DNA of 64,000 bases, from assembly GCA_006218035.1 (NCBI GenBank), contig VBWC01000003.1:117251-181250 (forward strand). The letters run 5' to 3'. Shown piece by piece: positions 10,681 through 28,056 of this stretch. The stretch is from Gammaproteobacteria bacterium. Its GTDB lineage: Bacteria; Pseudomonadota; Gammaproteobacteria; VBWC01. Position 1 is the first letter of the stretch. Each line of letters starts with the position of its first letter. Below the pieces are notes generated by a model. The model saw nothing but the letters and a program-made list of their open reading frames with translations, did no database searches and had not been told where the DNA came from. The translations under genes and the position numbers were made by a program.

Positions 10681-11742
10681 TTGAAAATATTTGTCACCGG
10701 GGGCGCGGGGTTTATCGGCTCTGCTGTCATTCGCGACCTGATTACGGGGTCAGAAGACACCGTAGTAAACATCGACAAGCTGACCTATGCCGGCAATCTG
10801 GAATCACTTTCTGCGGTCGAGGCCAATCCCCGCTATACATTTGAACGCGCCGATATCGGCGCGGCTCCGGTACTGCGAAAGCTGTTCGAAAAGTACCGGC
10901 CGGACGCGGTACTGCATCTGGCTGCAGAGTCTCATGTCGACCGATCTATCGATGGACCTGCCCAGTTTATTTACACCAATATCGTAGGAACCTACGCACT
11001 GCTGGAGGAAACCCTGCGGTACTGGCAGTCATTGGGTAGAGAGAGGCGATCGAGTTTTCGTTTCCACCACGTGTCCACCGACGAGGTGTACGGGTCGCTC
11101 GGCGAAACCGGGTTGTTTGGTGAAGATTACCCGTATCAACCCAGTTCACCGTATTCGGCAAGCAAGGCGGCGTCGGATCATCTGGTGCGAGCGTGGCATC
11201 ATACCTACGGTCTGCCGGTTGTTGTCAGTAATTGCTCGAACAATTACGGGCCGTACCAGTTTCCCGAAAAGCTGATACCCCTTGCAATCCTGAATGCGCT
11301 CGCCGGAAAGCCGATTCCGGTATATGGCAATGGCGAAAACGTCCGTGACTGGTTATATGTCGACGATCACGTGCGGGCGCTGCGGATGATACTTGCACAT
11401 GGCAACATCGGTGAAAGTTATAACGTGGGCGGGCATAACGAAAAAACCAATATCGAGGTTGTCGAAACCGTGTGCGGCTTGCTGGATGACCTGCGGCCGT
11501 CGTCCCCCTGTCGTCCGCATGCCTCATTGATAAAGTTCGTTGAAGACCGCCCCGGGCATGACAAGCGGTATGCGATTGACTCCGGCAAGATCGGTCGCGA
11601 GTTAGGTTGGCAGCCGCAGGAAACTCTCGACAGCGGCTTGCGCAAGACGGTGCAGTGGTATCTGGAGAATCAGTCCTGGAGCGAACACATACGTGACGGC
11701 CGATATCGCGGTGAGCGACTGGGTCTGGAGCGTGTGAAGTGA
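10681..11742 (+). CDS. rfbB: dTDP-glucose 4,6-dehydratase
   Basis: It has the N-terminal Rossmann motif [13 protein letters not shown] and the catalytic YSASKAASD motif. It begins at a TTG codon after a GGGGAAGGGA ribosome-binding site. Confidence 0.88.
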
Positions 11743-12626
11743 AGGGGATCATATTGGCAGGTGGCACCGGCACGCGGTTATACCCGCTGACACGGGTCGT
11801 CAGCAAACAGCTTCTGCCGGTGTATGACAAGCCGATGATTTACTATCCGCTGTCGGTTCTGATGTTATCCGGTATACGCGAAATCCTGGTGATTTCGACC
11901 CCGGAGGATCTGCCGCAGTTTCAGAAACTCCTGGGTGACGGATCGCAGTGGGGGCTGTCGTTCGTTTATGCACAACAGCCGCGTCCGGAAGGCATTGCGC
12001 AGGCATTTCTGATTGGTGAGTCGTTTATCGGCAACGACGCTGTATGCCTGGTGCTCGGCGATAATCTTTTTTATGGCCACGGGCTGGTGCGTGCGTTGCA
12101 GGAAGCAGTGGCGCGTCGCACGGGGGCCACGGTGTTTGGTTATCGTGTTCGTGACCCCGAGCGCTATGGAGTACTTGTATTCGATAAAAAAGGAAAGATC
12201 GTTGATATAGAGGAAAAGCCGAAACGCCCGCGTTCCAATATCGCGGTTACCGGGCTTTATTTTTATGATAATGACGTTATCGGTATTGCCAGGCAGATTA
12301 TGCCGTCGGCGCGCGGTGAGCTTGAAATCACCGACGTGACCCGCGCCTATCTTGACCGTGGTGATCTGCAGGTTGAAGTGTTGGGGCGTGGCGCGGCGTG
12401 GCTCGACACGGGCACACACCACTCGCTGCTGGAAGCCAGCCAGTTCATCGAGGTAATCGAGTCCCGCCAGGGCCTGAAGGTCTCCTGTCCGGAGGAAATC
12501 GCGTGGAGGATGGGTTTTATTGATGACGCGCAGTTAGAGATGTTGGCGCGGCCGCTGGAGAGTAGCGGGTATGGTCGGTATCTTCTCGACATGCTTGACC
12601 GCAAGAAATCAGACGATCGCGATTAA
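11739..12626 (+). CDS. rfbA: glucose-1-phosphate thymidylyltransferase
   Basis: The N-terminus [18 protein letters not shown]...[17 protein letters not shown] is typical of RmlA. The GTG start overlaps the rfbB stop. Confidence 0.9.
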
Positions 12627-12648
12627 TCTATATTGGTTCGATACGACA

Positions 12649-13212
12649 ATGAAAATTATCAAAACCAGCTTGCCCGACGTGGTCGTTGTTGAACCCGATG
12701 TATTTGCCGACGTGCGCGGAAAGTTTATGGAAACCTTCCGGGTCAATCGGTATCAGGAGGCCGGAATTCCTGGCCCGTTCGTGCAGGACAATTTTTCCCG
12801 TTCGCAACGCGGGGTGTTGCGCGGTCTACATTATCAGTTGCAAAAACCGCAAGGCAAGCTGGTCCAGGTGCTGCGCGGTGAGGTGTTTGACGTCGCCGTG
12901 GATATCCGGCGCGGATCACCGACCTTTCGCCAGTGGACTGCCGCGATACTGTCGGAGGAAAACAACCGGCAGATGTATATTCCGCCGGGTTTTGCGCACG
13001 GCTTTCTGGTGTTGAGCGAGACCGTCGACTTCGTTTACAAGTGCACTGACTACTATGATCGGGATGACGAATGCGGTGTGTTGTGGTCGGATCCGGCGAT
13101 CGGGATACGCTGGCCGGGCGGTGAGCAGCTTTTGTCAGCGAAGGATAGTGCCTTGCCGGAACTTGCGGCGATACCTGATGAAAAGCTGCCGGTATATCAG
13201 GCGTCACCATGA
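12649..13212 (+). CDS. rfbC: dTDP-4-dehydrorhamnose 3,5-epimerase
   Basis: The RmlC cupin motifs VRGKFMETFR...RGLHYQ...KLVQVLRGEVFDVAVDIR are present. The start was trimmed from the ORF-track coordinate 12571 to the ATG at 12649. Confidence 0.88.
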   Translation: MKIIKTSLPDVVVVEPDVFADVRGKFMETFRVNRYQEAGIPGPFVQDNFSRSQRGVLRGLHYQLQKPQGKLVQVLRGEVFDVAVDIRRGSPTFRQWTAAILSEENNRQMYIPPGFAHGFLVLSETVDFVYKCTDYYDRDDECGVLWSDPAIGIRWPGGEQLLSAKDSALPELAAIPDEKLPVYQASP

Positions 13213-14084
13213 CAATGCTGGTTACCGGTTGTGGCGGGCAGGTGGGAACCGAGCTGCTGCGCCGGGCGCGTGCCCACGGAATCGACGTGATCGGATTGTC
13301 CCACCAGGAACTCGATATCACCCGTTCAGATCAGGTTGATGCCGCTCTGTCGCGATTGCCCGTTACCGTCGTTGTGAATGCCGCCGCTTATACGGCGGTG
13401 GATCGCGCCGAGCATGACAAAGCGGCGGCGTTTGCCGTCAATCGCGACGGCCCTGCCAATCTGGCGCAATTTTGTACCGGGCAGGGAATCCCGTTGATCC
13501 ATATTTCCACGGATTATGTATTCGACGGAAACAAGCCGGGACCGTACACCGAGAATGATCCCGTTGCGCCATTGGGCGTGTATGGGGCGAGCAAGGCGGC
13601 GGGTGAGCAGGCGGTCCGGGAGCTGGCGCCCAAGCATGTGATCCTGCGTACTGCCTGGGTGTATAGCGCCCACGGCCATAATTTTGTCAAAACGATGTTA
13701 AGGCTGGGCCGCGAGCGCGATGAGATTGGCGTCGTGGCCGACCAGGTCGGCTGTCCAACGGCGGCCGGGGAAATCGCGGTAGCCATTATTACCGTGATAA
13801 AGGCGATGCAGGCGGGCGGTGACCCGTGGGGAACCTACCATTTCTGTGCGGCCGGTCAGGCGAGCTGGTACCAATTCGCCTGCCGGATCTTCGAGATTGC
13901 CTCACGTTACCGGCCGTACCCGGTGACGGTAAAGCCTATTCCCGGCACGGCATATCCGACACCAGTACGTCGTCCGGCAAATTCGGTACTGGATTGCTCC
14001 AGAATCGAGGAAACCTTCGACCTAGACCGACGCCCGTGGCCAGGGCCTCTCGCTGACGTTCTCGGCGAAATTCATAATAATTAA
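13209..14084 (+). CDS. rfbD: dTDP-4-dehydrorhamnose reductase
   Basis: It has MLVTGCGGQVGTEL and the YGASKAAGEQ active-site motif. The ATG overlaps the rfbC stop. Confidence 0.88.
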   Translation: MTMLVTGCGGQVGTELLRRARAHGIDVIGLSHQELDITRSDQVDAALSRLPVTVVVNAAAYTAVDRAEHDKAAAFAVNRDGPANLAQFCTGQGIPLIHISTDYVFDGNKPGPYTENDPVAPLGVYGASKAAGEQAVRELAPKHVILRTAWVYSAHGHNFVKTMLRLGRERDEIGVVADQVGCPTAAGEIAVAIITVIKAMQAGGDPWGTYHFCAAGQASWYQFACRIFEIASRYRPYPVTVKPIPGTAYPTPVRRPANSVLDCSRIEETFDLDRRPWPGPLADVLGEIHNN

Positions 14085-14203: not shown

Positions 14204-14313
14204 CCTCATCGGAAGCGGTAAAAATTTCCGGTTTTTCGGCAAGTTTATCCGCTAGTGAAAAATCTGAGCCCGGCAACGCCGTTCAAAGGTTGTCAGGGCG
14301 CGAGGAGAGAAAA

Positions 14314-15744
14314 ATGCCTCAAGTAATTAATACTAACGTTGCGTCGTTAAACGCCCAACGTAACCTGAATAAGTCCCAGACCGAATTGTCCGTCGCGCTG
14401 CAGCGTCTGTCTTCCGGTCTGCGTATCAACAGTGCCAAGGACGATGCCGCGGGACTGGCGATTTCGGAGCGGTTCACCACGCAGATTCGTGGTTTGAACC
14501 AGGCTGCCCGTAACGCGAGTGATGGTATTTCGCTGTCGCAAACGGCGGAATCGGCACTTGGCGAGTTGACAGCCAACCTGCAGCGTATCCGCGAGCTGGC
14601 TGTCCAGTCGGCGAACGGCTCTAACTCTGCATCCGATCGTGCGGCTCTTGATCTTGAAGTGCAGCAGCGTCTCGCGGAAATTGATCGTATCGCGACGCAA
14701 ACCACGTTCAACGGTCAGCGCGTCCTTGACGGTACGTTCGGTTCGCAGCAGTTCCAGGTCGGCGCGAACGTTGGTGACACGATCACTATAGATCTGAGCA
14801 CCGGTGTTCGTCTGACCCAGATCGGCCGTATCGCCAGCAGCACCGGCAGTGCGGTAGATGCAAACGCGTTGGCGGCCAATGACGTGACGATTAACGGTAC
14901 TGCAGTAGGTGCCGCCGTCGCTGGCACGGGCGCTCAGCAGACCGTCGACAGTGCTTATGCGAAGACCAACGCGATCAATAATTCCGGTATCGCGGATTTG
15001 ACAGCAACCGCCATCACGGGCACCAAGGGCTCGGACAATGCGAGCCAGGGTGTTACATTGACTGACGCTGGCGACTCGTATTCGCTGACCATCAACGGTG
15101 TGGCGGTTTACAGCACGACAGGTGCAACGACAGTCACCCAGGCCTCTTTGGTCTCAACGATTAACTCGTTTTCGACGCAGACCGGTGTGTCTGCCGCTGT
15201 CAGCGGTACAGCGCTTAATCTGACCACGACCGATGGGCGGAATATCGTAGTGGTCGCTGCGCAAACGGAAGCGGGCGGCGGTACGGCCGACACCACGAAA
15301 GTTGCGTTCTCCGCCGGCACGACGACGACACGCGGTACGGTCAAATTGCAATCGTCAGCCGCTATATCGGTAACCGGTACCGTGGCGCGTATTGGCCACA
15401 GCGTGGGCAGCATTGCGCTGGATACCAATACCTCTCTTTCCGGAATAGGCGTGACCACGATTACCAACTCCAACACGGCGATACAACGTGTGGATTCGGC
15501 GCTGACATCGGTCAGTAATCTGCGTAGTACCTTCGGTGCTATCCAGAGTCGTATGTCGTCCACGATCTCGAACCTGGAAGCGATCTCGGAAAACCTCGCT
15601 TCTTCACGCAGCCGAATCCTGGATGCGGATTTCGCCGCCGAAACGGCGTCGTTAACCCGCTCCCAGATTTTGCAGCAGGCAGGTATTGCGATTCTGGCCC
15701 AGGCGAACGCGGCTCCGCAGAATGCTCTGGCCTTGTTGCAGTAG
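14314..15744 (+). CDS. fliC: flagellin
   Basis: The conserved termini are MPQVINTNVASLNAQRNLNKSQ and LSLLQ-type ...APQNALALLQ. The central domain is rich in Ser/Thr/Gly/Ala. The start was trimmed from 14290 to the ATG at 14314 after a GAGGAGAG ribosome-binding site. Confidence 0.93.
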   Translation: MPQVINTNVASLNAQRNLNKSQTELSVALQRLSSGLRINSAKDDAAGLAISERFTTQIRGLNQAARNASDGISLSQTAESALGELTANLQRIRELAVQSANGSNSASDRAALDLEVQQRLAEIDRIATQTTFNGQRVLDGTFGSQQFQVGANVGDTITIDLSTGVRLTQIGRIASSTGSAVDANALAANDVTINGTAVGAAVAGTGAQQTVDSAYAKTNAINNSGIADLTATAITGTKGSDNASQGVTLTDAGDSYSLTINGVAVYSTTGATTVTQASLVSTINSFSTQTGVSAAVSGTALNLTTTDGRNIVVVAAQTEAGGGTADTTKVAFSAGTTTTRGTVKLQSSAAISVTGTVARIGHSVGSIALDTNTSLSGIGVTTITNSNTAIQRVDSALTSVSNLRSTFGAIQSRMSSTISNLEAISENLASSRSRILDADFAAETASLTRSQILQQAGIAILAQANAAPQNALALLQ

Positions 15745-15792: not shown

Positions 15793-15834
15793 TGAACCCG
15801 GAACGAGAAACGAAACTGGTAATAGGTGAGAAAC

Positions 15835-16260: not shown

Positions 16261-16263
16261 TCC

Positions 16264-16279: not shown

Positions 16280-16323
16280 TCGTTTACGGATGCAGGTGCG
16301 ATAGTTAGCTGACGAGGTCAGAT

Positions 16324-18384: not shown

Positions 18385-18462
18385 TGATGTGATGGGAGCG
18401 GCCCGTCTGCCGGTTTTCGGTGTGAAACTGAATCAGATATCGACGTAACGGCATGGGCCACC

Positions 18463-18489
18463 TAAAGCATATGGCACTTAGGCCGATAA
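18463..18489 (+). promoter_or_regulatory. sigma-28 (FliA) type promoter upstream of fliS
   Basis: TAAAG-N15-GCCGATAA is an exact consensus match. It lies about 75 nt upstream of the fliS ATG. Confidence 0.7.
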
Positions 18490-18562
18490 ATCGTGTACTA
18501 CGGCGCTCGCATTTAGTTGGCAGACCTGTTGAATATAAAATAAAAGAGTAAAAGGCAAGACT

Positions 18563-19018
18563 ATGAATTATGTGAAGACCACGGGCGCGTTGAAAGAGTA
18601 TAGCCAGGTCGGCGTCCATAGCGGGGTTGCCGCGGCGACGCCCCATCGTCTGATCCAGATGCTGATGGAGGGTGCCTTGGGCAAAATCGCCGGCGCGAAG
18701 GGCGCGATGGGCCGGGGCGATGTGCCTGCAAAGGGTGCCCAGATCAGCTGGGCGATATCGATCATCGACGGTTTACGTATGAGCCTCGACATGGAAGCGG
18801 GCGGAGAAATCGCCGACAACCTCAACCGTTTATATGACTACATGACCCGGCGTCTGCTGGAAGCGAATCTCAAGAACGAAGGCGCTTACCTCGATGAGGT
18901 GGCGAATCTGTTAAAGGAAATCAAATCGGCGTGGGACTCCATACCCGCCGAAATCAAAAATGCGCACGCTAACAACTCACCGGAACCCCCGTCCACGGTC
19001 GCATCGGCCAAGGGTTGA
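18563..19018 (+). CDS. fliS: flagellar export chaperone FliS
   Basis: The FliS motifs MNYVKTTGALKEYSQVGVHSG...PHRLIQMLMEGAL are present. Confidence 0.88.
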   Translation: MNYVKTTGALKEYSQVGVHSGVAAATPHRLIQMLMEGALGKIAGAKGAMGRGDVPAKGAQISWAISIIDGLRMSLDMEAGGEIADNLNRLYDYMTRRLLEANLKNEGAYLDEVANLLKEIKSAWDSIPAEIKNAHANNSPEPPSTVASAKG

Positions 19019-19033
19019 TCTGGTCATAATGCC

Positions 19034-19381
19034 GTGAGTTCGATGCAGTCGGAAACGGATACATCCGCGCAGCGTGCGCCATTAACGTTGATCATCGAGC
19101 TTACCCGAAAAATGCTTGCCGCCGCCCGTCAGAGCGACTGGGACACGGTATTGAGTTATGAAAATCGGCGCCGGCTGATCATGCAACAGACGTTTACGAA
19201 CGTTCCTGCATTGTCGGAGCTAAGCAATCTGGCCAGTTGTATCGAGGAGATATTAGGTCTCGATCGCGAGCTTATCGCACTTGCCGAGGGCGCCAGAACG
19301 GGGTTTGCAGATCAATTGAGCGTACTCAGGACCAGCAAAAAGGCCGTAAAGGCCTATACATTACCCGCTACCGCCAGTTAA
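19034..19381 (+). CDS. fliT: FliT-like flagellar chaperone (small helical protein after fliS)
   Basis: It is assigned from its position immediately after fliS, its 115-aa size and its helical character. The similarity to FliT is weak. Confidence 0.45.
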   Translation: MSSMQSETDTSAQRAPLTLIIELTRKMLAAARQSDWDTVLSYENRRRLIMQQTFTNVPALSELSNLASCIEEILGLDRELIALAEGARTGFADQLSVLRTSKKAVKAYTLPATAS

Positions 19382-19439
19382 TCGGGCGATCCCGGGCCGA
19401 TGCGACCGCACCACCTACCGCTCCGACACACCTCGCTTG

Positions 19440-22400
19440 TCACGATTTGCCGGTTTTGGCACTCAGCCCGACGCTGTCAAGAGCAGACCGCAACAGCTCG
19501 ATGTATTGATTCCGTACCGATGTCTTGTGGGCGATCAATCTTGCGGATTCGGCAGCGATGTCCATTGTTCGCAGCCGTTCCACAACGTCAACAGCGGACT
19601 CAACCGACGGATCGATGGTTTTCGATAGAAAACCATTGGCGCTCGTGAAGTATTGCGGCGCCGATATTACAAATGCGGGGATGCCCAGCGAGGCGCACAG
19701 GCCGGCGTCCTGCGCGCGCGTTGTAATCGTCATATCGAACGCATCGTAGATGCGCAGATAGTCAATGGCGTCGCTTGAGTAGTGAAAGTCCATGATATCC
19801 CCGAGCAGCGGCGTCAGCTCGGCGAGCTCACTGATATGGTGGCAGACCAGCGCACACTCGTAGTGCCGGGCGAGTTCCCGGTATAGATTCACGGTGTAGT
19901 GAAAGATCGACGGGTCCAGGCATTCGCTGGTTCTGCGTGATATCCCGGGCGTCGATAACGCGATGCGTTTTGTTTGCGTGCGCCATGTTGCGGTCTTCGC
20001 GCACAGCAACGTTGGGCAAGGCAACTGATGGGGATTCAGCGGGCGAAGCGTATTCCCACACGCTGTGTCGCGAACCGTGACCAGCAGCGAGCGGATAAGT
20101 AACAGTTGATCCAGGACCGCGACTTGCTCGAATTGGAAATCTTCCGTGTCCGACGCTGAGCCCAGGCCCAGATACATGGTCGGTATGGTCGTTTTGATAA
20201 GTCTATCGACCAACGGGCCGGCCATATCGCCTCGCCATGCCGTGATGCCGGTGAAAATTGCCAGATCAGCCGTTTCCAGATTGATGCCTGGATGCCATGA
20301 GTTGTCGCGCGTCGCTGACGGGTCGCGATAGTCGGCAGAGTCACGGCCATACGATCTATCCGGCGCGTCAGACGCTAACTGCGCTATGTCGGGGTGTCGT
20401 CGGTGAACAATCGGGTTGAAGTCCCCGATCAGTTCCGTGAGAAGATTCTGGATGCCATACCGCGCGAACTCCCCGTCCGTGTTGGTTGAGATCAGGATAT
20501 TCGGCCGAACCGTCGGCCGGGAACGATTGAAACGCCGTCCTATCATCAAATTCGGTACGTCGTGCGATCGGTCATAGTAGCGCGCAGGCACCTGGCGGGT
20601 GGCGGCGACGGCACGAAGTTCCGTGGCCAGCGCGGCGAAGGTGCCGGGCCAGTCCTGCGGCTCGGGCTGGCGAAACAGACGCATACTCGGATACCACGGG
20701 CTGTCGCTACGATCGAGCAACCAGCGCCAGTCCGCCACATAGGACAACAGCACCCATACTGGTTTTCCCATCGCTCCGCCAAGATGAGCGACGGATGTAT
20801 CGACGGATATGACCAGGTCCAGGTTTTCAACCAGCGCGGCACTGTCAGCAAACGTTAGTTGTTCGTTGGCCGCGTCGATCAGATGCATCCCCGCTGGCGG
20901 GTTGGCTGTCTGCTCCGCCCCCGTCCCTTTTTGCAGGCTGTGGAAAGTGACGCCAGGTATATCGCAGAGGCGTGCGAAATCTGCGAGCGAGCACGAGCGG
21001 TTCTTGTTATTGGCGTGACGGGGGTTTCCCGCCCACGCGAGTCCAACATTGAGGTGTCCCGGAACCATTTTTTCCTTCCACAAGCCGATACGTGCCGGGT
21101 CGGCGTGCAGATAGGGAACATCATTCGGGATGGTTCTAAACGTCGTACCGAACAGCGCCGGCAGGCTCAGCAGATAGGTGTGATAGTCGAAATCGACATC
21201 GGGTGCGGAACGCGTGTCCTGCACAATGAGCTGGTCGACGCCCTGCAAACCGGTGAAGAGATCGATCAATCCCGGCGGGCACTCGAATATCACATCGGCA
21301 CCCATTGCCTTGAGCATCGGCAGATACCGGACGAAATGCATTGAGTCGCCGATCCCTTGTTCCGCGTGCACCAGAATCCGCTTTCCGGCCAGCGGCTCGC
21401 CTTTCCAGCGCGGCTTTTTCATGGTCCGATGGTCGGGCCGTCGCTCCAGTATCTGGATACGCGATTCGTATGCCTTCCATGCGTCGGCAAAGCGGCCGAG
21501 CGTCAACATCACGATACCCTTGTTCAGATGGGCGTCCGCAAGGTCGGGCTGGATCATTATTGCCTCATCGAACCGGCCGTAGGCCGCGCTATAGTCACCC
21601 ATGTCCTTAAACGCTGTTCCCATGTTCATATGGGCAGCCGCGTAATCGCGCTTGAGCGACAACGCTGAGCGGTAATGCTGTATGGCGCCGGCAAAATCAC
21701 CGTTCGATTTGAGCGCGTTACCGAGGTTGCAATGCGCTTCGGCCATGCCGGGCTGTAGCTTCAGGGCGCTTTCAAAGTAGGCGATGGCGTCAGCGGTCTT
21801 GCCTTGTTGGCAGAGCGCATTGCCATAGCTGTTTAGCGTATGCGCATGTGCGGGATTGATCGCCAGTGCTTTTTCAAATAGCGGTAATGCGTCATCGATG
21901 CGATTTTGTTGCAGCTCCGCGAGCCCCAGGCTGTTCAGGGTGTCGACGTTGTCGGGCTCTATCGTCAGCAGCCGCCGATAACAGGCCGCCGCGGCTGCCG
22001 GCTCGCCCTTGCCATGCTGAAGTTCCGCGAGTATACGCAGCGCGTTGGCGTTGTTTCCGTCGCACTCCAGCGTCCGCCTGAACGCGTGGACTGCGTCGTC
22101 GGCGCGGTTCAGTTTCAACAGCGCGACGCCGAGGTTGAAATGGGCGAGAGAGAATGCCGGAGCGAGCTCCGTCGCTTTCGTAAAATGCTCGATCGCCAGC
22201 TCCGGATTGTTCCGCTTGAGCGCTACGTGCCCGAGGTTGTTGATCGCCTCGGGAAACGCCGGTCGCAGATGCGCTGCGCGGATATAACATTGCTCGGCAT
22301 CGTCGATGCGTTCCAGTTCAAGGTAGATACTGCCAAGATCATTCAGGATGCCCGGTTGTGCGGGGTCGATTGACAATGCCTGCTCACAGTGACGCACCGC

Positions 22401-22808
22401 CTCATCACGCTGCCCCTGGTTCTGCAATAGCCCGGCAAGCGCAATATGCGCCGCCAGATACAACGGGTCTATCGATAGCGCACTGCGGTGACAGGTAATG
22501 GCCTTGGCGGTATCGCCCGCGGCGGCGCAGGCCGAGGCCAGGTTCTGATAGTAGGACGGGGCGCGGGGATTGTGGCTGATTGCCTGTTCGATCAGGCTCG
22601 TCGCCGCCGCCGGATTGCCCTGTTGCAGCTCGGTCACACCCAGCAGATTCAAGGCGTCCGCATGACCGGGACTGGTGGCGAGAATCTTGCGATACAACCG
22701 CGCCGCACGCGCTATGTCGCCGGACTCATGCGCGCGCACGGCATTATCGAGTAATGCTGCGGATCGGGTTCCGACGTCGGCGATTTTCTCGCTGGTGTTA
22801 ATGCTCAT
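19440..22808 (-). CDS. TPR-repeat / GT9 (heptosyltransferase-like) glycosyltransferase with additional C-terminal domain (1122 aa)
   Basis: The N-terminal ~450 aa hold about 12 TPR units (repeated A..Y....L...P..A.A..NLG). The GT9 signatures are KRILVHAEQGIGDSMHFVRYLP and LVISVDTSVAHLGGAMGKPVWVLL. The C-terminal ~380 aa are of unclear family and may be pyruvyl-transferase-like (ITTRAQDAGLCASLGIPAFVIS). Confidence 0.75.
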   Translation of the reverse strand: MSINTSEKIADVGTRSAALLDNAVRAHESGDIARAARLYRKILATSPGHADALNLLGVTELQQGNPAAATSLIEQAISHNPRAPSYYQNLASACAAAGDTAKAITCHRSALSIDPLYLAAHIALAGLLQNQGQRDEAVRHCEQALSIDPAQPGILNDLGSIYLELERIDDAEQCYIRAAHLRPAFPEAINNLGHVALKRNNPELAIEHFTKATELAPAFSLAHFNLGVALLKLNRADDAVHAFRRTLECDGNNANALRILAELQHGKGEPAAAAACYRRLLTIEPDNVDTLNSLGLAELQQNRIDDALPLFEKALAINPAHAHTLNSYGNALCQQGKTADAIAYFESALKLQPGMAEAHCNLGNALKSNGDFAGAIQHYRSALSLKRDYAAAHMNMGTAFKDMGDYSAAYGRFDEAIMIQPDLADAHLNKGIVMLTLGRFADAWKAYESRIQILERRPDHRTMKKPRWKGEPLAGKRILVHAEQGIGDSMHFVRYLPMLKAMGADVIFECPPGLIDLFTGLQGVDQLIVQDTRSAPDVDFDYHTYLLSLPALFGTTFRTIPNDVPYLHADPARIGLWKEKMVPGHLNVGLAWAGNPRHANNKNRSCSLADFARLCDIPGVTFHSLQKGTGAEQTANPPAGMHLIDAANEQLTFADSAALVENLDLVISVDTSVAHLGGAMGKPVWVLLSYVADWRWLLDRSDSPWYPSMRLFRQPEPQDWPGTFAALATELRAVAATRQVPARYYDRSHDVPNLMIGRRFNRSRPTVRPNILISTNTDGEFARYGIQNLLTELIGDFNPIVHRRHPDIAQLASDAPDRSYGRDSADYRDPSATRDNSWHPGINLETADLAIFTGITAWRGDMAGPLVDRLIKTTIPTMYLGLGSASDTEDFQFEQVAVLDQLLLIRSLLVTVRDTACGNTLRPLNPHQLPCPTLLCAKTATWRTQTKRIALSTPGISRRTSECLDPSIFHYTVNLYRELARHYECALVCHHISELAELTPLLGDIMDFHYSSDAIDYLRIYDAFDMTITTRAQDAGLCASLGIPAFVISAPQYFTSANGFLSKTIDPSVESAVDVVERLRTMDIAAESARLIAHKTSVRNQYIELLRSALDSVGLSAKTGKS

Positions 22809-23056
22809 TCGCAGGGCAATCTCTCTTCATTAACTGTCGATCGCGTATCGGTGTAACGATGCTGGCCCTAAAAATGCATAATTTGTACCAGAGCCATCAT
22901 GTTAACGAGTGGACCCGGCATGCCGCTGCGATACCCGCAAAGCGGTCGATTCTTGCCGTATCAAACGATATGCTGGCCGATCACGCAGCAAGTTCCGCGA
23001 TACCCGACAGGCAATGACGACAAATAATTGACCGGAAGAGGCGGGCTGTCGAAGGC

Positions 23057-24880
23057 ATGGCACATACACAAAGGCATGATAGTTCGGTGACGACAGTCCC
23101 AGACAACACTCAGGCGGCAACGATTGATCGATGGATCGACGCGGCCTTGCAACACCACCAGGCCGGCCGTTTGCCCGATGCCGAGGCGCTGTATCGCCAG
23201 GCACTTGTGGAGCAACCCGATCATCCGGATGCACTGCATCTGCTCGGGTTCGTGGCGTATCAGTGCGGCCGGCACCAGCAGGCGCTTGAACTGATTTCGA
23301 CCGCCTTACGCCGCTCCCCGGATGCGCCCGATTTTCACAACCATCTCGGTCTGGTCCTGGCGGCGCTGGGCAGACCGGCAGACGCGATAGCGAGCTATGG
23401 CAACGCCCTGCGACTCGCGCCGGAATTTCCGGAAGCGCATAACAACCTCGGCATCCGGTTGCGCGAAGACGGTCGCCTGACGGAGGCGGAAGCGCACTAC
23501 CGCGCCGCGGTGGCGGCCCGGCCAGTGTTTTCGGATGCGTGGAATAACCTCGGCAACGTGTGTCGTGAACGCGGTGAATTCGATGCGGCCCTGGCGGCGT
23601 ATCGCGAAGCGCTGCGGCAACGGCCCGATTTCGCCGAGGCGCACAGCAATATCTTGTTTACATTGAGCCACTACTTGCTGGCTGATCCGGATCAGCTGCT
23701 GCAGGAACATCAGGGCTGGGACCGCGTGCATGGCGTTGCCGGGCGCGCACACGCCCACGCGCATCCGCGTCGCGGGGATCCGGAAAAACGCCTGCGTATC
23801 GGCTATGTATCGCCGGATTTTCGTTTGCACGCCGCGAACAGTTTCTTTGAGTCGCTGATCGCCGCGCACACCCGCGACGCGGTAGAGATCTTCTGTTACG
23901 CCGAAGTATCCCGGCCGGATGCGGTGACAGAGCGCATCCGCGTGAACGCCGATGTTTGGCGGAGTACCGTGGGGCTGTCGGATGACGCGCTCGGGCGGCA
24001 GATTCGCGACGACGGTATCGATATTCTGGTCGATCTGGCCGGGCATACGACCGGCAACCGGTTGCGCGTGTTTACCGGGAAACCGGCGCCGATACAAGTA
24101 TCTTATCTCGGCTACTGCGCGACGACCGGCCTGACCGCGATGGACTACTGGATTACCGACGGGGTGATTCACCCGCCCGATACGATCGAAAGGACAGTCG
24201 AAGCGATCATCCGGTTGCCGCGCTGCTGGGTGACCTACCGGCCGCCTGTGGACGCGCCGCCGGTTCGTTTACCGGCACGCAGTGGTATTACGTTCGGCTG
24301 TTTTAACGAACGTTCCAAGATCACGCCAGCCACGATCGCGCTGTGGAGCAGTATCCTGCTCGAACTGCCTGATGCCCGCCTGGTGCTCAAGGCGCGCCAG
24401 TACGCCGATGACAGTGTCCGGCAGGCGATCATCGATACCTTTACGCAGCACGGGGTGGCCGCAAACCGGTTGGTGTTTCTGCCAGCTACCGGTTACCTCG
24501 ATTACCTCGCCGCCTATCAAGACGTCGATATCGCGCTGGATCCGGTACCTCGCGCGGGCGGCGTGACCACAGCGGACGCGTTGTGGATGGGCGTGCCGGT
24601 GATCACCTTGTGCGGGCAGCGTTTCATCGAGCGCCACGGCGCGAGCCTGTTACGTGCCGCCGGCATGGACGAGTGGATCGCCGTGACGCCGCGGGATTAC
24701 GTTGACAAGGCGCTGGCGCTCGCGCGTGACCACGTGCACCGGCGTACTATGCGGCTGGCCCAGCGTGACCGTATGGCGGCGTCGCCATTGTGTGACGCAT
24801 TGGCCCATGCGCGCGCCATGGAACAAATCTACCGGGACATGTGGCGCGCATACGTGCGCAACACACCCCTGACTTCATGA
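23057..24880 (+). CDS. TPR-repeat protein with C-terminal GT41 (O-GlcNAc-transferase/SPINDLY-like) glycosyltransferase domain (607 aa)
   Basis: About 5 TPR units span aa 25-200. The C-terminal domain carries RIGYVSPDFRLHA...APIQVSYLGYCATTG...GGVTTADALWMGVPVITLCGQRFIERHGASLL, typical of the bacterial OGT-like family (COG3914). Confidence 0.8.
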   Translation: MAHTQRHDSSVTTVPDNTQAATIDRWIDAALQHHQAGRLPDAEALYRQALVEQPDHPDALHLLGFVAYQCGRHQQALELISTALRRSPDAPDFHNHLGLVLAALGRPADAIASYGNALRLAPEFPEAHNNLGIRLREDGRLTEAEAHYRAAVAARPVFSDAWNNLGNVCRERGEFDAALAAYREALRQRPDFAEAHSNILFTLSHYLLADPDQLLQEHQGWDRVHGVAGRAHAHAHPRRGDPEKRLRIGYVSPDFRLHAANSFFESLIAAHTRDAVEIFCYAEVSRPDAVTERIRVNADVWRSTVGLSDDALGRQIRDDGIDILVDLAGHTTGNRLRVFTGKPAPIQVSYLGYCATTGLTAMDYWITDGVIHPPDTIERTVEAIIRLPRCWVTYRPPVDAPPVRLPARSGITFGCFNERSKITPATIALWSSILLELPDARLVLKARQYADDSVRQAIIDTFTQHGVAANRLVFLPATGYLDYLAAYQDVDIALDPVPRAGGVTTADALWMGVPVITLCGQRFIERHGASLLRAAGMDEWIAVTPRDYVDKALALARDHVHRRTMRLAQRDRMAASPLCDALAHARAMEQIYRDMWRAYVRNTPLTS

Positions 24881-27189
24881 GCGTCAACCAACATATCGCG
24901 GGATCGCGGCTCGACAAACTGCTGGCCGACGCGGTGGCGCTGCATCAGGCCGGGAATCTCGCCGCGGCAGATACCCTGTATCGCGAGGCGCTGGCGATTG
25001 ATCGGCAACTCCCCGGCGCACTTTACGGTGCCGGTGTGGTCGCTCATCAGCTGGGCCACAACGATACGGCGATCGAATTGCTCGATGCGGCGCTACGCCA
25101 TCGTCCCGATGAACCGGCCTGGCTCAACATGCGCGGTCTGGTGTATGCGGCAATCGGCCGGATTGAGATGGCGCTCGAGGACTTTCAGCATGCCATCAGG
25201 CTTGAGCCGGACTTCGCCGAGGCGTACAACAGCATCGGTGTGACGCTGCGCAAGCAGGGTCGGGTCGATGAGGCGATCGAGTATTACCGGCAGGCGATTG
25301 AATGTCGTCCGGACCTCGTTATGGCGCATAACAATCTTGGCAACGCTCTCAAGAGCAAAGGGGCGCTCGACGCAGCGTTAGACCATTATCGCCATGCCTT
25401 GACGCTGCAGCCGGATTTCGTCGAGGCGATCAACAATCTCGGTACGGTCTACACGATGCAGGGGTCACTCGACGAGGCGCATGACGCATTCGAAAGAGCA
25501 CTGCAACTGCGGCCGGAATACCCGGACGCGCTGAATAATCTTGGCGTGGTTTATCAGAAGCGGGGAGACATTTCAGCCGCGCGGCAGTGCTTCGAGCGCG
25601 CGCTCCGGATCAGTCCGGGATTCGCCGCCGCGCACGCGAATCTGGCGTCCGCGCAGAATGCGCAGGAGGAGTTTTACAACGCGATCGAGTCTTGCCGCCA
25701 GGCACTGGCGATTGCGCCGGAGTTTCCCGAGGCCTATTTCAACCTGGGCATTGCGTTCAAGGATCTCGGTTTGCCGCTGAAGGCGCTGAAATACTTCGAA
25801 ACCGCCGTCAGACTGCGGCCGAACTACGCTGGCGCCTACAACGGCATCGCCAACGTCTGCCGCGACCAGGGGCAATTCGAGCTGGCCGGAACGTTCTATC
25901 GTGAAGCGTTGAGCGCTGATCCAACGAACCATGAAGTACATAACAATCTGCTGTTTACCATGAGCCATCACGTGATGACCACTCCGGAGGCGTTACTGGA
26001 GGCGCATCGGGACTGGGCGGCTAGCCATTGCCATGAAGGACGGGTGCATCGGTATACGCACTCTCCCGCGACGGCCCATGACGGGCGACGCTTGCGTATC
26101 GGTTACGTGTCACCGGATTTCCGCCGGCATGCCGCCGCCATCTTTCTGGAGCCGTTGCTCGCGGCTCACGACCGGCGGGTCGTCGAGATTTATTGTTACG
26201 CCGAACTTGTCCGTACCGATCAGGTGACCACGCGCTTCCGTCAGAGCGCGGACGCCTGGCGCGATACCGCCGGGATGAGCGACACGCAGCTGGCCCGACA
26301 GATCGTCGATGACCGGATCGATATCCTTGTCGATCTGGCCGGGCATACCGCCGGCAATCGGTTGACGATGTTTGCCTTCAAGCCGGCACCGGTGCAGGCG
26401 ACCTATCTCGGCTACTGTGCGACCACCGGTCTGGAAGAAATCGATTACTGGATCAGCGACGACGTGATACATCCGGCGGATACCTGCGAACTGGCGGTTG
26501 AGCAGATCCTGCGGTTGCCGCGCTGCTGGGTGAGTTACCAGCCGCCGGTCGATGCGCCGGAGGTGCAGATATCGCAACACGATCACATTACATTCGGATG
26601 TTTCAATGACCGCAGCAAGATCACGCCGGAGGTGGTCGCTGCGTGGAGCGGGATTCTCGATCGCGTACCTGGTTCGCGGTTGGTGCTGAAAGCGCGCCAG
26701 TACGCCGATGCGGACATCAATGCCGAGCTGATCGGTATGTTCCGGCAACATGGTATTGACGCGACGCGGCTCGAGTTCCAGCCGCTGTCGCTGCCCGGCG
26801 AATATCTGGCCAGTTATCACGCGATCGATATCGCGCTCGATCCGTTCCCGCGGCACGGCGGCGTTACTACGGCGGATGCCTTGTGGATGGGTGTGCCCGT
26901 GGTGACGCTGATTGGCGAGCGGTTCATCGAACGGCATGGTGCCAGCCTGCTGGCGGCAATCGGCGCACAGGACTGGATTGCCCAAGACCTCGAATGCTAT
27001 ATCGAGATCGCCGTGGCGTTGGCAGCGGATCCCGGTCGGCGTCACGCGTTGCGCCTGACGCAGCGGCAACGCGTGCGCGAGTCACCGTTGTGCGATCCGC
27101 AGGGATTGGCCAGGGCGATGGAGGGGCTCTATCGGCGGATGTGGCGCCGATATGTCCAATCGGCTTACGGTTCAACTCCCGCTTGCTAG
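24877..27189 (+). CDS. paralogous TPR-repeat / GT41 (OGT-like) glycosyltransferase (770 aa)
   Basis: The TPR array is longer (about 10 units), and the C-terminal domain is near-identical in motifs to the upstream gene (RIGYVSPDFRRHA...APVQATYLGYCATTG...GGVTTADALWMGVPVVTLIGERFIERHGASLL). Its ATG forms an ATGA overlap with the upstream stop. Confidence 0.8.
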   Translation: MSVNQHIAGSRLDKLLADAVALHQAGNLAAADTLYREALAIDRQLPGALYGAGVVAHQLGHNDTAIELLDAALRHRPDEPAWLNMRGLVYAAIGRIEMALEDFQHAIRLEPDFAEAYNSIGVTLRKQGRVDEAIEYYRQAIECRPDLVMAHNNLGNALKSKGALDAALDHYRHALTLQPDFVEAINNLGTVYTMQGSLDEAHDAFERALQLRPEYPDALNNLGVVYQKRGDISAARQCFERALRISPGFAAAHANLASAQNAQEEFYNAIESCRQALAIAPEFPEAYFNLGIAFKDLGLPLKALKYFETAVRLRPNYAGAYNGIANVCRDQGQFELAGTFYREALSADPTNHEVHNNLLFTMSHHVMTTPEALLEAHRDWAASHCHEGRVHRYTHSPATAHDGRRLRIGYVSPDFRRHAAAIFLEPLLAAHDRRVVEIYCYAELVRTDQVTTRFRQSADAWRDTAGMSDTQLARQIVDDRIDILVDLAGHTAGNRLTMFAFKPAPVQATYLGYCATTGLEEIDYWISDDVIHPADTCELAVEQILRLPRCWVSYQPPVDAPEVQISQHDHITFGCFNDRSKITPEVVAAWSGILDRVPGSRLVLKARQYADADINAELIGMFRQHGIDATRLEFQPLSLPGEYLASYHAIDIALDPFPRHGGVTTADALWMGVPVVTLIGERFIERHGASLLAAIGAQDWIAQDLECYIEIAVALAADPGRRHALRLTQRQRVRESPLCDPQGLARAMEGLYRRMWRRYVQSAYGSTPAC

Positions 27190-27829
27190 CTGTCGAGCGC
27201 ATGGATTATTGTGCACGGGTATGACGGAACCACATAACGACAGGTTGGGCAGCGGTCTGGTCTATACCGACTCGATACCATTCTCGTGGCGGCAACTCGA
27301 TACCGTTACCGGCGATGCTGCCGCGGCTCACATCGGTCACCACAGCCTGCAGGTGCTGCGGCTGATTCTGTCGATAGAGGAACAGGGGCCGGAGCCGGTC
27401 GCGGATGCCGATCCGGAGCACGAGAACATCGCCCGGCTGGAATTCAAGCTGAATCTGCTGATCGATCTGGTCGGCTACCTGCTCGCGCAGAATTCCCTGA
27501 TCCCGCCCCGTGTGCTTGTAAGCCTGAGTGCGGACGGACTGGAATGGGGCAGTGACGATGCGCCGCAGCTGGGCAGCTATGTTGAACTGGCGTTATACCT
27601 GAGCCCGAAATATCCGCGGCCAGTGACCTTGCCAGGCTTCATCGAAGCCGTGGATGTAACGCCGGAGGGCGGCTACCGCACACGTGCGATCTTTCCAGAG
27701 CTGAGCGTCCCGCTGCAGGACGCGCTGGAGAAATTCATCTTTCGTCATCACCGCCGGATCATTGCGAGCCGGCGTGGCGAAACCTCGACAGCGGATGAGC
27801 ATACTGGAGTAATGCAACACGATTCCTAA
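27152..27829 (+). CDS. hypothetical protein (225 aa) immediately upstream of fleQ
   Basis: The ORF overlaps the preceding gene by 38 nt, and an alternative in-frame ATG lies at 27221. No confident family assignment was possible from the sequence. It has an acidic middle region and a basic C-terminus. Confidence 0.5.
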   Translation: MSNRLTVQLPLASCRAHGLLCTGMTEPHNDRLGSGLVYTDSIPFSWRQLDTVTGDAAAAHIGHHSLQVLRLILSIEEQGPEPVADADPEHENIARLEFKLNLLIDLVGYLLAQNSLIPPRVLVSLSADGLEWGSDDAPQLGSYVELALYLSPKYPRPVTLPGFIEAVDVTPEGGYRTRAIFPELSVPLQDALEKFIFRHHRRIIASRRGETSTADEHTGVMQHDS

Positions 27830-27887
27830 CTAAGTTTCTGAAATCCCGATTTAATGACCCGGGAGCCATGGGCAAGATGACGAAATT

Positions 27888-27916
27888 TTGACATTTATAG
27901 GGGGCAGTGGTTTACT
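27888..27916 (+). promoter_or_regulatory. sigma-70-like promoter upstream of fleQ
   Basis: TTGACA is followed by a 17-nt spacer and TTTACT. It lies about 140 nt upstream of the fleQ ATG. Confidence 0.5.
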
Positions 27917-28056
27917 CTGTCCCAACGGGCGCTTCCAGGGGTTGATTGCCCGGAGTCTTCATAAATAGAAGGGGCCGGCCCGGGCCCGAAAGAACTGCAC
28001 CCTACAATGACGCGGCGCGGCAACTGCTCAGAAAACGGGAACGGGAGGTAGCTCGC

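What the first reader, a model, noticed from the sequence alone, without database searches (positions are those of the whole stretch)
23057..27189. Tandem paralogous TPR-GT41 genes with blocks of near-identical DNA; translationally coupled (ATGA overlap)
The two OGT-like genes share long identical motif blocks at DNA level. One example is ATCC(TG)CGGTTGCCGCGCTGCTGGGTGA in both, around 24210 and 26510. They differ in TPR number (about 5 versus about 10). This suggests a recent duplication with diversification of the substrate-recognition TPR array, for example different acceptor sites or different substrates such as flagellin versus the cap protein.
Basis: seen in the sequence. Interest (0 to 1): 0.5.

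Follow-up and report, generated by a model that had tools for sequence, protein, structure and literature searches.

The report
Old, conserved flagellar TPR-glycosyltransferase gene pair
Two neighbouring, overlapping genes for SPINDLY-like TPR glycosyltransferases sit in a flagellar sugar-modification island, but they are an ancient conserved pair and not a recent duplication with near-identical DNA.

Summary
The anatomy is as described. Gene A (23057-24880, 5 TPRs) and gene B (24877-27189, 10 TPRs) both carry a GT41 catalytic domain, overlap in ATGA, and share an exact 22-mer at 24212 and 26512.

The evolutionary reading fails.
- The proteins are 54% identical. DNA is 59% identical over all aligned codons and about 70% over the catalytic core.
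- No 90-nt window exceeds 76% identity. Exact runs are 22, 20, 19 and 14 nt, all on invariant motifs.
- Synonymous sites are saturated (pS 0.67, dS about 1.7).
- A and B genes from different genomes share equally long runs (20-22 nt).
- Four other assemblies carry the same A-B pair in the same flagellar locus. A and B form separate clades with matching topology.
- A third paralogue elsewhere in a sister genome is as close to A and to B as they are to each other.

So the duplication predates these lineages.

The pair lies in a conserved island: rmlBACD-fliC-flaG-fliD-fliS-fliT-C-A-B-pilZ-fleQ. It sits behind a conserved sigma-54-like promoter element, and both genes are under purifying selection with catalytic motifs intact.

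Most likely the two are cytoplasmic flagellin O-glycosyltransferases that differ in acceptor recognition. This function is inferred, not shown. It is a new member of a known kind, of modest interest.

The parts
23057..24880 (+). Gene A: a TPR(5)-GT41 protein of 607 aa from ATG 23057. The start may instead be GTG 23087 (597 aa), as NCBI annotates and as orthologue N-termini suggest.
   Evidence: ORF and translation. PF13844 at 176 bits plus TPR families. 100% match to NCBI MAG protein FD165_139. Nearest solved structure is Arabidopsis SPINDLY 7y4i, E 9e-125, aligned over residues 41-602.
23123..23632 (+). TPR array of A: five 34-residue repeats, aa 23-192, followed by a capping or connector helix (AEAHSNILF...).
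   Evidence: The 34-residue register and the per-repeat identity matrix show A TPR1-5 collinear with B TPR1-5, at 13-18 of 34 identities each.
23657..24877 (+). GT41 catalytic domain of A. It is SPINDLY-like and shows no large insertion relative to SPINDLY.
   Evidence: Motifs SPDFRLHA (from aa 252), FGCFNERSKI (from aa 413, holding the catalytic-Lys equivalent of SPY K665) and DPVPRAGGVTTAD (from aa 495).
24877..24880 (+). ATGA: the start codon of B overlaps the stop codon of A.
   Evidence: Read directly from the sequence. The same ATGA occurs in L003 and L054, a 1-nt overlap (TGATG) in L001, and an 11-nt overlap in L002. The 20 nt upstream (cgcaacacacccctgacttc) contain no Shine-Dalgarno-like purine run.
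24877..27189 (+). Gene B: a TPR(10)-GT41 protein of 770 aa.
   Evidence: ORF and translation. PF13844 at 179 bits. SPINDLY 7y4i at E 5e-139. The orthologue P0009 starts at the same MSVN....
24910..25929 (+). TPR array of B: ten 34-residue repeats, aa 12-351. TPR6-10 have no counterpart in A.
   Evidence: pairwise alignment.
25957..27186 (+). GT41 catalytic domain of B.
   Evidence: 59.5% identical to the catalytic domain of A by tblastn. Motifs SPDFRRHA, FGCFNDRSKI and DPFPRHGGVTTAD.
24212..24233 (+). Exact 22-mer shared with B; it encodes RLPRCWV.
26512..26533 (+). Exact 22-mer shared with A.
22863..22890 (.). Conserved 28-nt element TGGCCCTAAAAATGCATAATTTGTACCA in the C/A intergenic region. 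It reads as a sigma-54 -24/-12 promoter on the + strand (towards A-B) and on the - strand (towards gene C). The two share the palindromic TGCA.
   Evidence: Pattern search. The same element is present in all five loci. It is the only long invariant block in the intergenic alignment. fliD carries a similar TGGCCCTCGTTTTGCA at 16264.
19440..22808 (-). Gene C, divergent from A-B: 1122 aa with about 13 TPRs, a GT9-like domain and a C-terminal domain that resembles a pyruvyl transferase in orthologues.
   Evidence: for the TPRs. PF01075 is weak here (E 8e-4) but is precomputed in most homologues, and PF04230 appears in the full-length orthologues P0122 and P0124. The gene is conserved at the same position in L001, L002, L003 and L054.
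27221..27829 (+). tPilZ-domain gene 31 nt downstream of B, probably the third gene of the operon.
   Evidence: PF16823 at E 3e-13. The start was fixed by alignment to orthologues. The gene always follows B.
10681..14084 (+). rmlB-rmlA-rmlC-rmlD (dTDP-L-rhamnose synthesis), lying between flgL and fliC.
   Evidence: NCBIfam equivalogs TIGR01181, TIGR01207, TIGR01221 and TIGR01214, all above their cut-offs. The same position is seen in L003 and L055.
14311..15744 (+). fliC, the only flagellin in the window and the presumed acceptor. About 30% of its central region (residues 171-400 of the ORF translation) is Ser or Thr.
   Evidence: Pfam Flagellin_N and Flagellin_C; sequence and S+T fraction.

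Best explanation
A and B are an anciently duplicated, stably retained pair of cytoplasmic SPINDLY-like TPR-GT41 protein glycosyltransferases. They belong to a conserved flagellar glycosylation island.

Shown:
- The two genes sit between fliT/gene C and pilZ-fleQ in five independent assemblies.
- They are always adjacent with overlapping stop and start codons.
- Each is under purifying selection.
- Each keeps the GT41 catalytic Lys motif and the TPR Asn-containing repeats.
- They differ essentially by five extra TPRs in B.

Inferred:
- They are transcribed together, probably with pilZ, from a sigma-54-type promoter of the flagellar regulon.
- B is translated by termination-reinitiation at the ATGA, since no Shine-Dalgarno sequence precedes it. 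This would give fixed A:B stoichiometry.
- Each enzyme uses its TPR superhelix to hold a flagellar protein, most likely FliC, before export.
- The GT-B domain then transfers a small sugar to Ser/Thr. The most plausible donor is L-rhamnose from the dTDP-L-rhamnose made by the adjacent rmlBACD genes.
- The near-identical catalytic pockets together with 5 versus 10 TPRs suggest the same chemistry applied to different acceptor sites or proteins.
- Gene C (TPR-GT9-like) and, in some relatives, a TPR-methyltransferase would elaborate the glycan.
For: Age of the pair:
- dS is about 1.7, which is saturated.
- Paralogue dN is 0.39-0.46, against at most 0.36 for orthologues.
- The A and B clades are congruent, with bootstrap 96-100 on the inner nodes.
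- A third paralogue clade is equally distant from both.
- Cross-genome paralogues share equally long exact runs.

Conserved synteny and overlap.

Purifying selection: dN/dS is 0.10-0.24 in both lineages.

Catalytic competence:
- PF13844 scores far above its cut-off.
- SPINDLY is the best solved homologue, at E 1e-124 and 5e-139.
- SPY N661/K665 map to N/K, D491/H495 map to D/H, and the phosphate-loop GGVTTAD motif is present in all ten orthologues.
- K665 is essential in SPY (PMC9715652).

Flagellar regulon membership:
- The conserved sigma-54-like element is the only invariant intergenic block.
- rmlBACD lies next to fliC in three loci.

Precedents:
- GT41/SPINDLY-type enzymes occur in flagellin glycosylation islands of Enterobacteriaceae (PMC4875605).
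- The TPR domain of the flagellin glycosyltransferase FlmG binds flagellins and is required for modification (PMC7591256).

A-versus-B difference: it is concentrated in the TPR array.
Against: - No experiment shows that this flagellin is glycosylated, or that A or B acts on it.
- The organism is a MAG.
- The donor is unknown. The residue proposed to select the donor in GT41 (SPY Y744, human OGT C917) is Arg in A and B. No characterised GT41 has Arg there.
- rmlBACD could serve LPS, or could serve gene C rather than A and B.
- Close paralogues of A and B sit outside flagellar loci (P0037, P0085), so family membership alone does not imply a flagellar substrate.
- The sigma-54 assignment rests on a motif match only. 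Two overlapping divergent promoters cannot both be occupied at once.
- The NJ node uniting the deepest A member has only 62% bootstrap, and the A/B/third-clade branching order is unresolved.
Confidence: 0.6

Rival explanations
1. A and B arose by a recent tandem duplication, or are homogenised by gene conversion, leaving near-identical DNA blocks. The TPR number has since diversified rapidly.
For: An exact 22-mer is shared, plus three more runs of 14-20 nt. This is a slight excess over a codon-resampling null, with P about 0.02-0.04. The genes are adjacent and in the same orientation.
Against: - pS is 0.67 and dS about 1.7.
- DNA identity is 59% overall and at most 76% in any 90-nt window.
- Orthologous A-B pairs exist in four other genomes, down to 60% amino-acid identity, with congruent clades.
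- Cross-genome A-versus-B comparisons give the same run lengths and the same or higher same-codon fractions.
- TPR counts are stable within each clade: 595-610 aa against 767-776 aa.
Confidence: 0.02
2. A and B are subunits of one obligate heteromeric glycosyltransferase, with asymmetric TPR arms of 5 and 10 repeats, rather than two independent enzymes. The conserved stop/start overlap exists to enforce 1:1 synthesis.
For: - The overlap is conserved in five loci, and no Shine-Dalgarno sequence precedes B.
- Both genes are always present together.
- SPY works as a dimer and appears to act in 2:2 stoichiometry (PMC9715652).
- Both keep intact active sites.
Against: - There is no direct evidence of interaction.
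- Translational coupling is also common between consecutive enzymes of one pathway.
- The overlap length varies (1, 4 and 11 nt).
- Close single-copy paralogues such as P0037 and P0085 evidently work without a partner.
Confidence: 0.2
3. A and B glycosylate proteins other than flagellin. Candidates are FliD, hook-associated proteins, FleQ or other regulators, as a cytoplasmic O-GlcNAc- or O-fucose-like regulatory modification. Alternatively, they act sequentially with different sugars on the same glycan.
For: - Eukaryotic OGT and SPY are regulatory enzymes with many targets (PMC9715652).
- Paralogues occur in non-flagellar contexts.
- A PilZ-type gene and fleQ follow directly.
- The B clade always has PRHGG where the A clade has PR(A/T)GG, next to the putative donor-gate residue.
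Against: - The position between fliS/fliT and fleQ, the rml genes next to fliC and two more TPR-tethered glycan-modifying enzymes in the same island all fit a filament glycosylation island.
- Only 7 fixed differences separate the catalytic domains of A and B, which argues against different chemistry.
Confidence: 0.15

Closest known systems
Arabidopsis SPINDLY (SPY), a GT41 protein O-fucosyltransferase (PDB 7y4i, 8dtf; PMC9715652, PMC10027727)
   Same: - Best solved homologue of both A and B, at E 9e-125 and 5e-139. The alignment covers the last TPRs, the connector and the whole catalytic domain, with no large insertion of the kind expected for human OGT's intervening domain.
- The equivalents of N661, K665, D491 and H495 are conserved.
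- The TPR array is directly fused to the GT-B domain.
   Different: - Donor-gate Y744 is Arg, S496 is Ala, and base-stacking H728 is Tyr. GDP-fucose use is therefore not implied.
- A and B have 5 and 10 TPRs, against 11 in SPY.
- They are bacterial, sit in a flagellar locus and come as a coupled pair.
GT41/SPINDLY-type (COG3914) glycosyltransferases of enterobacterial flagellin glycosylation islands (De Maayer and Cowan 2016, PMC4875605)
   Same: GT41 enzymes are encoded inside flagellar loci next to fliC, often together with rml genes and methyltransferases. These islands hold one to three glycosyltransferases each.
   Different: - Most of the enterobacterial GT41 proteins are fused to a methyltransferase domain. 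Here the methyltransferase, when present (L001, L002), is a separate TPR protein.
- Those enzymes are also uncharacterised biochemically.
- Sequence relatedness to them was not tested here.
Caulobacter FlmG, a modular TPR-GT flagellin O-glycosyltransferase (PMC7591256)
   Same: The architecture and proposed logic match: an N-terminal TPR domain binds flagellins and a C-terminal GT-B domain transfers the sugar in the cytoplasm before export. It is about 600 aa, like A.
   Different: - FlmG transfers pseudaminic acid, and this window has rml genes.
- FlmG is a single gene, not a coupled pair.
- Homology of the FlmG GT domain to GT41 was not tested here.
Human/Drosophila OGT and Xanthomonas XcOGT (PDB 3pe3, 5a01, 2jlb)
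   Same: Same CAZy family, with TPR repeats of the ...A.NNLG... type and the same catalytic Lys.
   Different: - These are weaker matches than SPY.
- The best-scoring aligned stretches to human OGT chains cover only residues 136-391 of A, consistent with OGT's intervening domain, which A and B appear to lack.
- The gate residue is Cys in OGT and Tyr in XcOGT, against Arg here.
Pseudomonas aeruginosa flagellin glycosylation islands (FgtA/PA1091, OrfN)
   Same: Same locus logic in a FleQ/FleS/FleR-type polar flagellar cluster. The deoxyhexose, probably rhamnose, is O-linked to flagellin Ser (PMC11833859).
   Different: FgtA is a GT2 enzyme fused to a phosphotransferase (PMC11833859), not GT41. 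Its island lies between flgL and fliC, whereas A-B lie between fliT and fleQ.

Membership tests
CAZy GT41 / Pfam PF13844 (OGT-SPINDLY family) | Significant match to the Glyco_transf_41 profile above the curated cut-off | tested here: met
   A scores 176.1 bits and B 179.1 bits against a cut-off of 25. The catalytic part alone scores 177.7 bits.
CAZy GT41 / Pfam PF13844 (OGT-SPINDLY family) | N-terminal TPR superhelix fused directly to the GT-B catalytic domain | tested here: met
   5 TPRs (A) and 10 TPRs (B) in a 34-residue register, followed by a connector and the catalytic domain.
CAZy GT41 / Pfam PF13844 (OGT-SPINDLY family) | Catalytic lysine (hOGT K842 / SPY K665) and the phosphate-binding Thr loop | tested here: met
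   FNxRSK and GGVTTAD are conserved in A, B and all eight orthologues.
CAZy GT41 / Pfam PF13844 (OGT-SPINDLY family) | Transfer of a monosaccharide from a nucleotide sugar to a protein side chain | not testable with these tools
   Needs enzyme assays or glycoproteomics.
SPINDLY-type protein O-fucosyltransferases (a subgroup of GT41) | No intervening domain between the N-Cat and C-Cat lobes; closest to SPY over the full catalytic domain | tested here: met
   A contiguous alignment of A 41-602 to SPY 279-847 and of B 329-762 to SPY 408-847.
SPINDLY-type protein O-fucosyltransferases (a subgroup of GT41) | Tyr at the donor-gate position (SPY Y744), needed for fucosyltransferase activity (PMC9715652) | tested here: not met
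   Arg in A and B (PRAGG and PRHGG). Arg occurs in 33 of the 120 best homologues, against Tyr in 53. A and B should not be filed as O-fucosyltransferases.
Flagellin glycosylation island / flagellin O-glycosyltransferase (functional class) | Encoded inside the flagellar gene cluster near fliC, with conserved synteny | tested here: met
   The order fliC-flaG-fliD-fliS-fliT-C-A-B-pilZ-fleQ is seen in the window, L001, L002, L003 and L054.
Flagellin glycosylation island / flagellin O-glycosyltransferase (functional class) | Nucleotide-sugar biosynthesis genes in the same island | tested here: met
   rmlBACD equivalogs lie immediately upstream of fliC here, in L003 and in L055.
Flagellin glycosylation island / flagellin O-glycosyltransferase (functional class) | Flagellin actually carries an O-linked glycan that depends on the enzyme | not testable with these tools
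   No proteomic data are available. FliC has an S/T-rich central region (30%), which permits glycosylation but does not show it.
Flagellin glycosylation island / flagellin O-glycosyltransferase (functional class) | Co-regulation with flagellar genes | tested here: inconclusive
   A conserved sigma-54-like -24/-12 element lies upstream of A in five loci and resembles the one before fliD. This is a motif match only.
   pS is 0.67 and dS about 1.7. The minimum pS in any 30-codon window is 0.36.
   winA is 72% identical to P0003 in another genome but 58% to winB. The clades are separate, and cross-genome A-B similarity equals within-genome similarity.
Translationally coupled gene pair | Overlapping stop and start codons, conserved, with no independent ribosome-binding site for the downstream gene | tested here: met
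   ATGA in three loci, TGATG in one and an 11-nt overlap in one. There is no purine-rich Shine-Dalgarno run in the 20 nt before B. The coupling itself is inferred.

The most novel reading that the evidence does not exclude
A and B may represent an uncharacterised 'Arg-gate' class of GT41 enzymes. The class signature is PRxGGxTT, FNxxSK and SPDFxxHA. Its donor would be neither UDP-GlcNAc nor GDP-fucose. In this locus the donor could be dTDP-L-rhamnose, which would make them the first GT41 protein O-rhamnosyltransferases. They might also work on flagellin as a translationally coupled heteromer with asymmetric TPR arms of 5 and 10 repeats.
Probability: 0.15. Interest if true: 0.6.

Novelty: new member of a known kind. 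Interest (0 to 1): 0.27.

Why it matters
The result removes a false lead: there is no recent duplication or concerted evolution here.

What remains is a clean, five-fold conserved example of a flagellar modification island. In it every enzyme carries its own TPR module: two GT41 enzymes, a GT9-like/pyruvyl-transferase-like protein and, in some relatives, a methyltransferase.

If the pair is studied experimentally, it offers a natural test of how TPR length sets acceptor choice, because the catalytic domains are nearly the same. It also offers an entry point to a large, uncharacterised Arg-gate subgroup of bacterial SPINDLY-like enzymes whose sugar donor is unknown.

Tried and rejected
- **Gene conversion or a recent duplication tract.** Rejected by sliding-window pS, the repeat finder and cross-genome paralogue controls.
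- **The 22-mer as significant evidence of recency.** It is significant against random shuffles. Against the proper null of a conserved protein alignment plus codon bias it is only marginal, and pairs from different genomes match it.
- **A or B as a degenerate pseudoenzyme.** Rejected: catalytic motifs are intact in all ten genes and dN/dS is 0.10-0.24.
- **Different catalytic chemistry in A and B.** Little support: only 7 fixed differences in 407 columns, none at a known catalytic position.
- **First sigma-54 search.** It used the wrong spacer (N9) and found nothing relevant. Corrected to N8.
- **A sigma-28-like GCCGATCA upstream of A.** The spacing is wrong and it is conserved only in the near-identical L003. 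Not pursued.
- **Sigma-70 and terminator scan of 18900-28100.** Nothing above shuffled expectation.
- **Solved-structure search with the C-terminal 673 aa of gene C.** No hit with E below 0.07.
- **Literature on Burkholderia FlmQ.** The JBC 2014 paper is not held. My recollection that FlmQ is a TPR-type glycosyltransferase is therefore only a lead and is not used.
- **Structure prediction.** Not run, because sequence homology to SPINDLY is already decisive and the tool cannot model an A-B complex.

Full report
**Observation**

The region holds two same-strand ORFs: A at 23057-24880 (607 aa) and B at 24877-27189 (770 aa from the ATG inside the ATGA overlap). NCBI annotates A from the GTG at 23087, giving 597 aa, and orthologue N-termini fit that start better.

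Both proteins have an N-terminal TPR array and a Pfam PF13844 GT41 domain far above its cut-off. In a strict 34-residue register A has 5 TPRs and B has 10. A's repeats 1-5 are collinear with B's repeats 1-5, so B carries five additional repeats (6-10) in front of the connector.

The quoted block is real. CGGTTGCCGCGCTGCTGGGTGA occurs exactly at 24212 and at 26512 and nowhere else in the window.

**Is the DNA near-identical?**

No.
- The proteins are 54% identical over 567 residues. blastn aligns only 869 bp, at 69%.
- In a codon alignment the only exact in-register runs of 14 nt or more are 22, 20, 19 and 14 nt. All lie on invariant motifs: LPRCWV, VDLAGHT, ARQYAD and YLGYC.
- The repeat finder reports 300 nt at 72%, 184 nt at 70% and 43 nt at 84%, all at a spacing of exactly 2300 nt.
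- No 30-codon window exceeds 76% nucleotide identity, and the lowest local pS is 0.36.
- Nei-Gojobori pS is 0.67, giving dS about 1.7, which is saturated. dN is 0.39.
- I built a null that keeps the protein alignment and redraws synonymous codons from the window's codon usage. The longest run then averages 15.3 nt, with P(>=22) = 0.044. The excess is marginal.

The decisive control compares A and B genes taken from different genomes. These share runs of 20, 21 and 22 nt and have equal or higher same-codon fractions. The blocks therefore reflect family-level motif conservation under GC3 bias.

**Age of the duplication**

A database search found A-like proteins at 93, 72, 69 and 60% identity. 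Each lies on the same contig as a B-like protein of about 770 aa. The contigs confirm adjacency and context:
- L001/L055, L002, L003 and L054 all show fliC-flaG-fliD-fliS-fliT-(TPR-methyltransferase in two of them)-C(minus strand)-A-B-tPilZ-fleQ-fleS-fleR-fliE-fliF-fliG.
- The window has the same order, including flaG and fliT ORFs.

In a neighbour-joining tree of the catalytic domain, A and B orthologues form two separate clades with the same internal branching. Bootstrap is 96-100 on the inner nodes and 62 on the deepest A node.

Paralogue dN (0.39-0.46) exceeds the dN of the most distant orthologue pairs (0.31-0.36).

A third clade (P0028, P0037, P0085) is 57-61% identical to A and B, as close as A is to B at 58%. 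P0037 is encoded in the same genome as L003, in a non-flagellar neighbourhood.

The duplication therefore predates the common ancestor of these five lineages. A and B are two members of a multigene family, not fresh copies. Tandem arrays of two to four GT41 genes also occur in unrelated genomes, such as Burkholderia seminalis, a Magnetococcales MAG and Ferrovibrio. Tandem TPR-GT41 genes are thus a recurrent arrangement.

**What the proteins are**

The nearest solved structure for both is Arabidopsis SPINDLY, at E 9e-125 and 5e-139. The alignment runs contiguously through the connector and the whole catalytic domain. Matches to human OGT chains are weaker, and for A the best stretch to the truncated constructs covers only residues 136-391.

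Mapping SPY's functional residues (PMC9715652) onto the HMMER alignment gives:
- N661/K665 map to N/K (FNxRSK). K665 is essential in SPY.
- D491/H495 map to D/H.
- S496 maps to Ala.
- The base-stacking H728 maps to Tyr.
- Y744 maps to Arg (PRxGGVTTAD). That paper argues Y744 sets the size of the sugar pocket and may drive donor selection across GT41.

All ten A and B genes keep these motifs, and orthologue dN/dS is 0.10-0.24 in both lineages. Both are probably active enzymes.

Among the 120 best homologues the gate residue is Tyr in 53, Arg in 33, Phe in 10 and Cys in 4. Arg co-occurs with Ser at the SPY A664 position and Ala at the S496 position. A and B therefore belong to an Arg-gate subgroup with no characterised member. 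They should not be filed as O-fucosyltransferases or O-GlcNAc transferases.

**A versus B**

Across 407 catalytic columns, 153 are invariant in both clades. Only 7 are fixed differently, none at a known catalytic position. The B clade always has PRHGG where the A clade has PR(A/T)GG.

The main stable difference is the TPR array: A proteins are 595-610 aa and B proteins 767-776 aa in every genome.

**Context and regulation**

- rmlB, rmlA, rmlC and rmlD are all NCBIfam equivalogs above their cut-offs. They lie between flgL and fliC here, in L003 and in L055.
- Gene C is divergent from A. It has about 13 TPRs plus a GT9-like domain. In full-length orthologues its C-terminal part hits PF04230, polysaccharide pyruvyl transferase.
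- The C/A intergenic regions of the five loci are otherwise diverged but share one 28-nt block, TGGCCYYRAAARTGCATAATYTGTACCA, at window 22863-22890.
- This block reads as a sigma-54 -24/-12 promoter on both strands, with the two sharing the palindromic TGCA. fliD is preceded by a similar TGGCCCTCGTTTTGCA.
- The stop/start overlap of A and B is conserved: ATGA in three loci, TGATG in one and 11 nt in one. No Shine-Dalgarno-like run precedes B.
- A tPilZ gene follows B after 31 nt in the window, with its start at 27221. In the other loci it starts 32-35 nt after B's end coordinate.

**Most likely mechanism**

Shown: an ancient, syntenic, overlapping and selectively maintained pair of catalytically intact SPINDLY-like TPR-GT41 genes inside a flagellar island that also encodes dTDP-L-rhamnose synthesis.

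Inferred:
- A-B(-pilZ) is a sigma-54-dependent flagellar operon.
- B is made by termination-reinitiation.
- Each enzyme binds a flagellar protein through its TPR superhelix before export. The most likely target is FliC, whose central region is 30% Ser/Thr. This follows the FlmG precedent (PMC7591256).
- Each enzyme then O-glycosylates that protein.
- The donor is possibly dTDP-L-rhamnose.
- The 5 versus 10 TPR arrays direct the same chemistry to different sites or proteins.

GT41 enzymes in flagellin glycosylation islands have been catalogued in Enterobacteriaceae (PMC4875605). The Pseudomonas FgtA enzyme, by contrast, is GT2 (PMC11833859).

The main rivals are an obligate A-B heteromer and non-flagellin targets. 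None of the functional steps can be tested with sequence tools.

**Verdict**

- This is a new member of a known kind of system, of modest interest. The more interesting open points are the unknown donor of the Arg-gate GT41 subgroup and the possible heteromer.

Noticed in passing
window 22863-22890 (also L001, L002, L003 and L054 between gene C and gene A): A 28-nt element, TGGCCCTAAAAATGCATAATTTGTACCA, is the only long invariant block in an otherwise diverged intergenic region. It matches a sigma-54 -24/-12 promoter on both strands, with a shared palindromic TGCA as the -12 element. This suggests two overlapping, mutually exclusive divergent promoters for C and for A-B.
   Followed up: partly
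window about 23021-23034: A second short conserved block, AAATAATTGACC (invariant core TTGAC), lies about 25-35 nt upstream of the A start in all five loci. Its role is unknown.
   Followed up: no
window 10681-14084: A complete rmlB-rmlA-rmlC-rmlD operon for dTDP-L-rhamnose synthesis is inserted between flgL and fliC. It is conserved at this position in L003 and L055.
   Followed up: partly
window 19440-22808 (minus strand): Gene C has about 13 TPRs, a GT9 (heptosyltransferase-like) domain and a C-terminal domain that hits PF04230 (polysaccharide pyruvyl transferase) in orthologues. NCBI names it 'Flp pilus assembly protein TadD', which looks like a TPR-driven misannotation. TPR-GT9 proteins are very numerous: 7471 hits at E <= 1e-10.
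   Followed up: partly
L001 4450-6501; L002 4231-6363: A TPR-methyltransferase gene (683-710 aa) lies between fliT and gene C in two relatives. It is absent from the window, L003 and L054. The island therefore varies by whole TPR-enzyme modules.
   Followed up: no
window 27221-27829: An atypical PilZ-domain (PF16823) gene follows B after 31 nt in the window and after a similarly short gap in the other loci, just before fleQ. The mechanical ORF start at 27152 overlaps B and is probably wrong; orthologue alignment puts the start at 27221.
   Followed up: partly
proteins P0001-P0120 (homologues of A): The GT41 donor-gate residue (SPY Y744, human OGT C917) varies among close bacterial homologues: Tyr 53, Arg 33, Phe 10, Cys 4, Trp 2, Gln 1. 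Arg co-varies with Ser and Ala at two other pocket positions. This points to several donor-specificity classes in bacterial SPINDLY-like enzymes.
   Followed up: partly
L052 10001-12193 (GCA_023266115.1, contig JAHFRU010000003.1): The sister genome of the window's organism encodes a third TPR-GT41 paralogue (P0037, 730 aa) among housekeeping genes. It is as similar to A and to B as they are to each other.
   Followed up: partly
L016 (Burkholderia seminalis) 10685-21162; L019 (Magnetococcales MAG) 10691-18173: Four TPR-GT41 genes lie in tandem within about 8-11 kb in each of these unrelated genomes. In L016 they sit with an RmlB-like gene, and no flagellar gene lies within the 10-kb flanks.
   Followed up: no
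window 14290-15744: The mechanical fliC ORF starts at TTG 14290. The conserved flagellin N-terminus MPQVINTN begins at ATG 14311.
   Followed up: no
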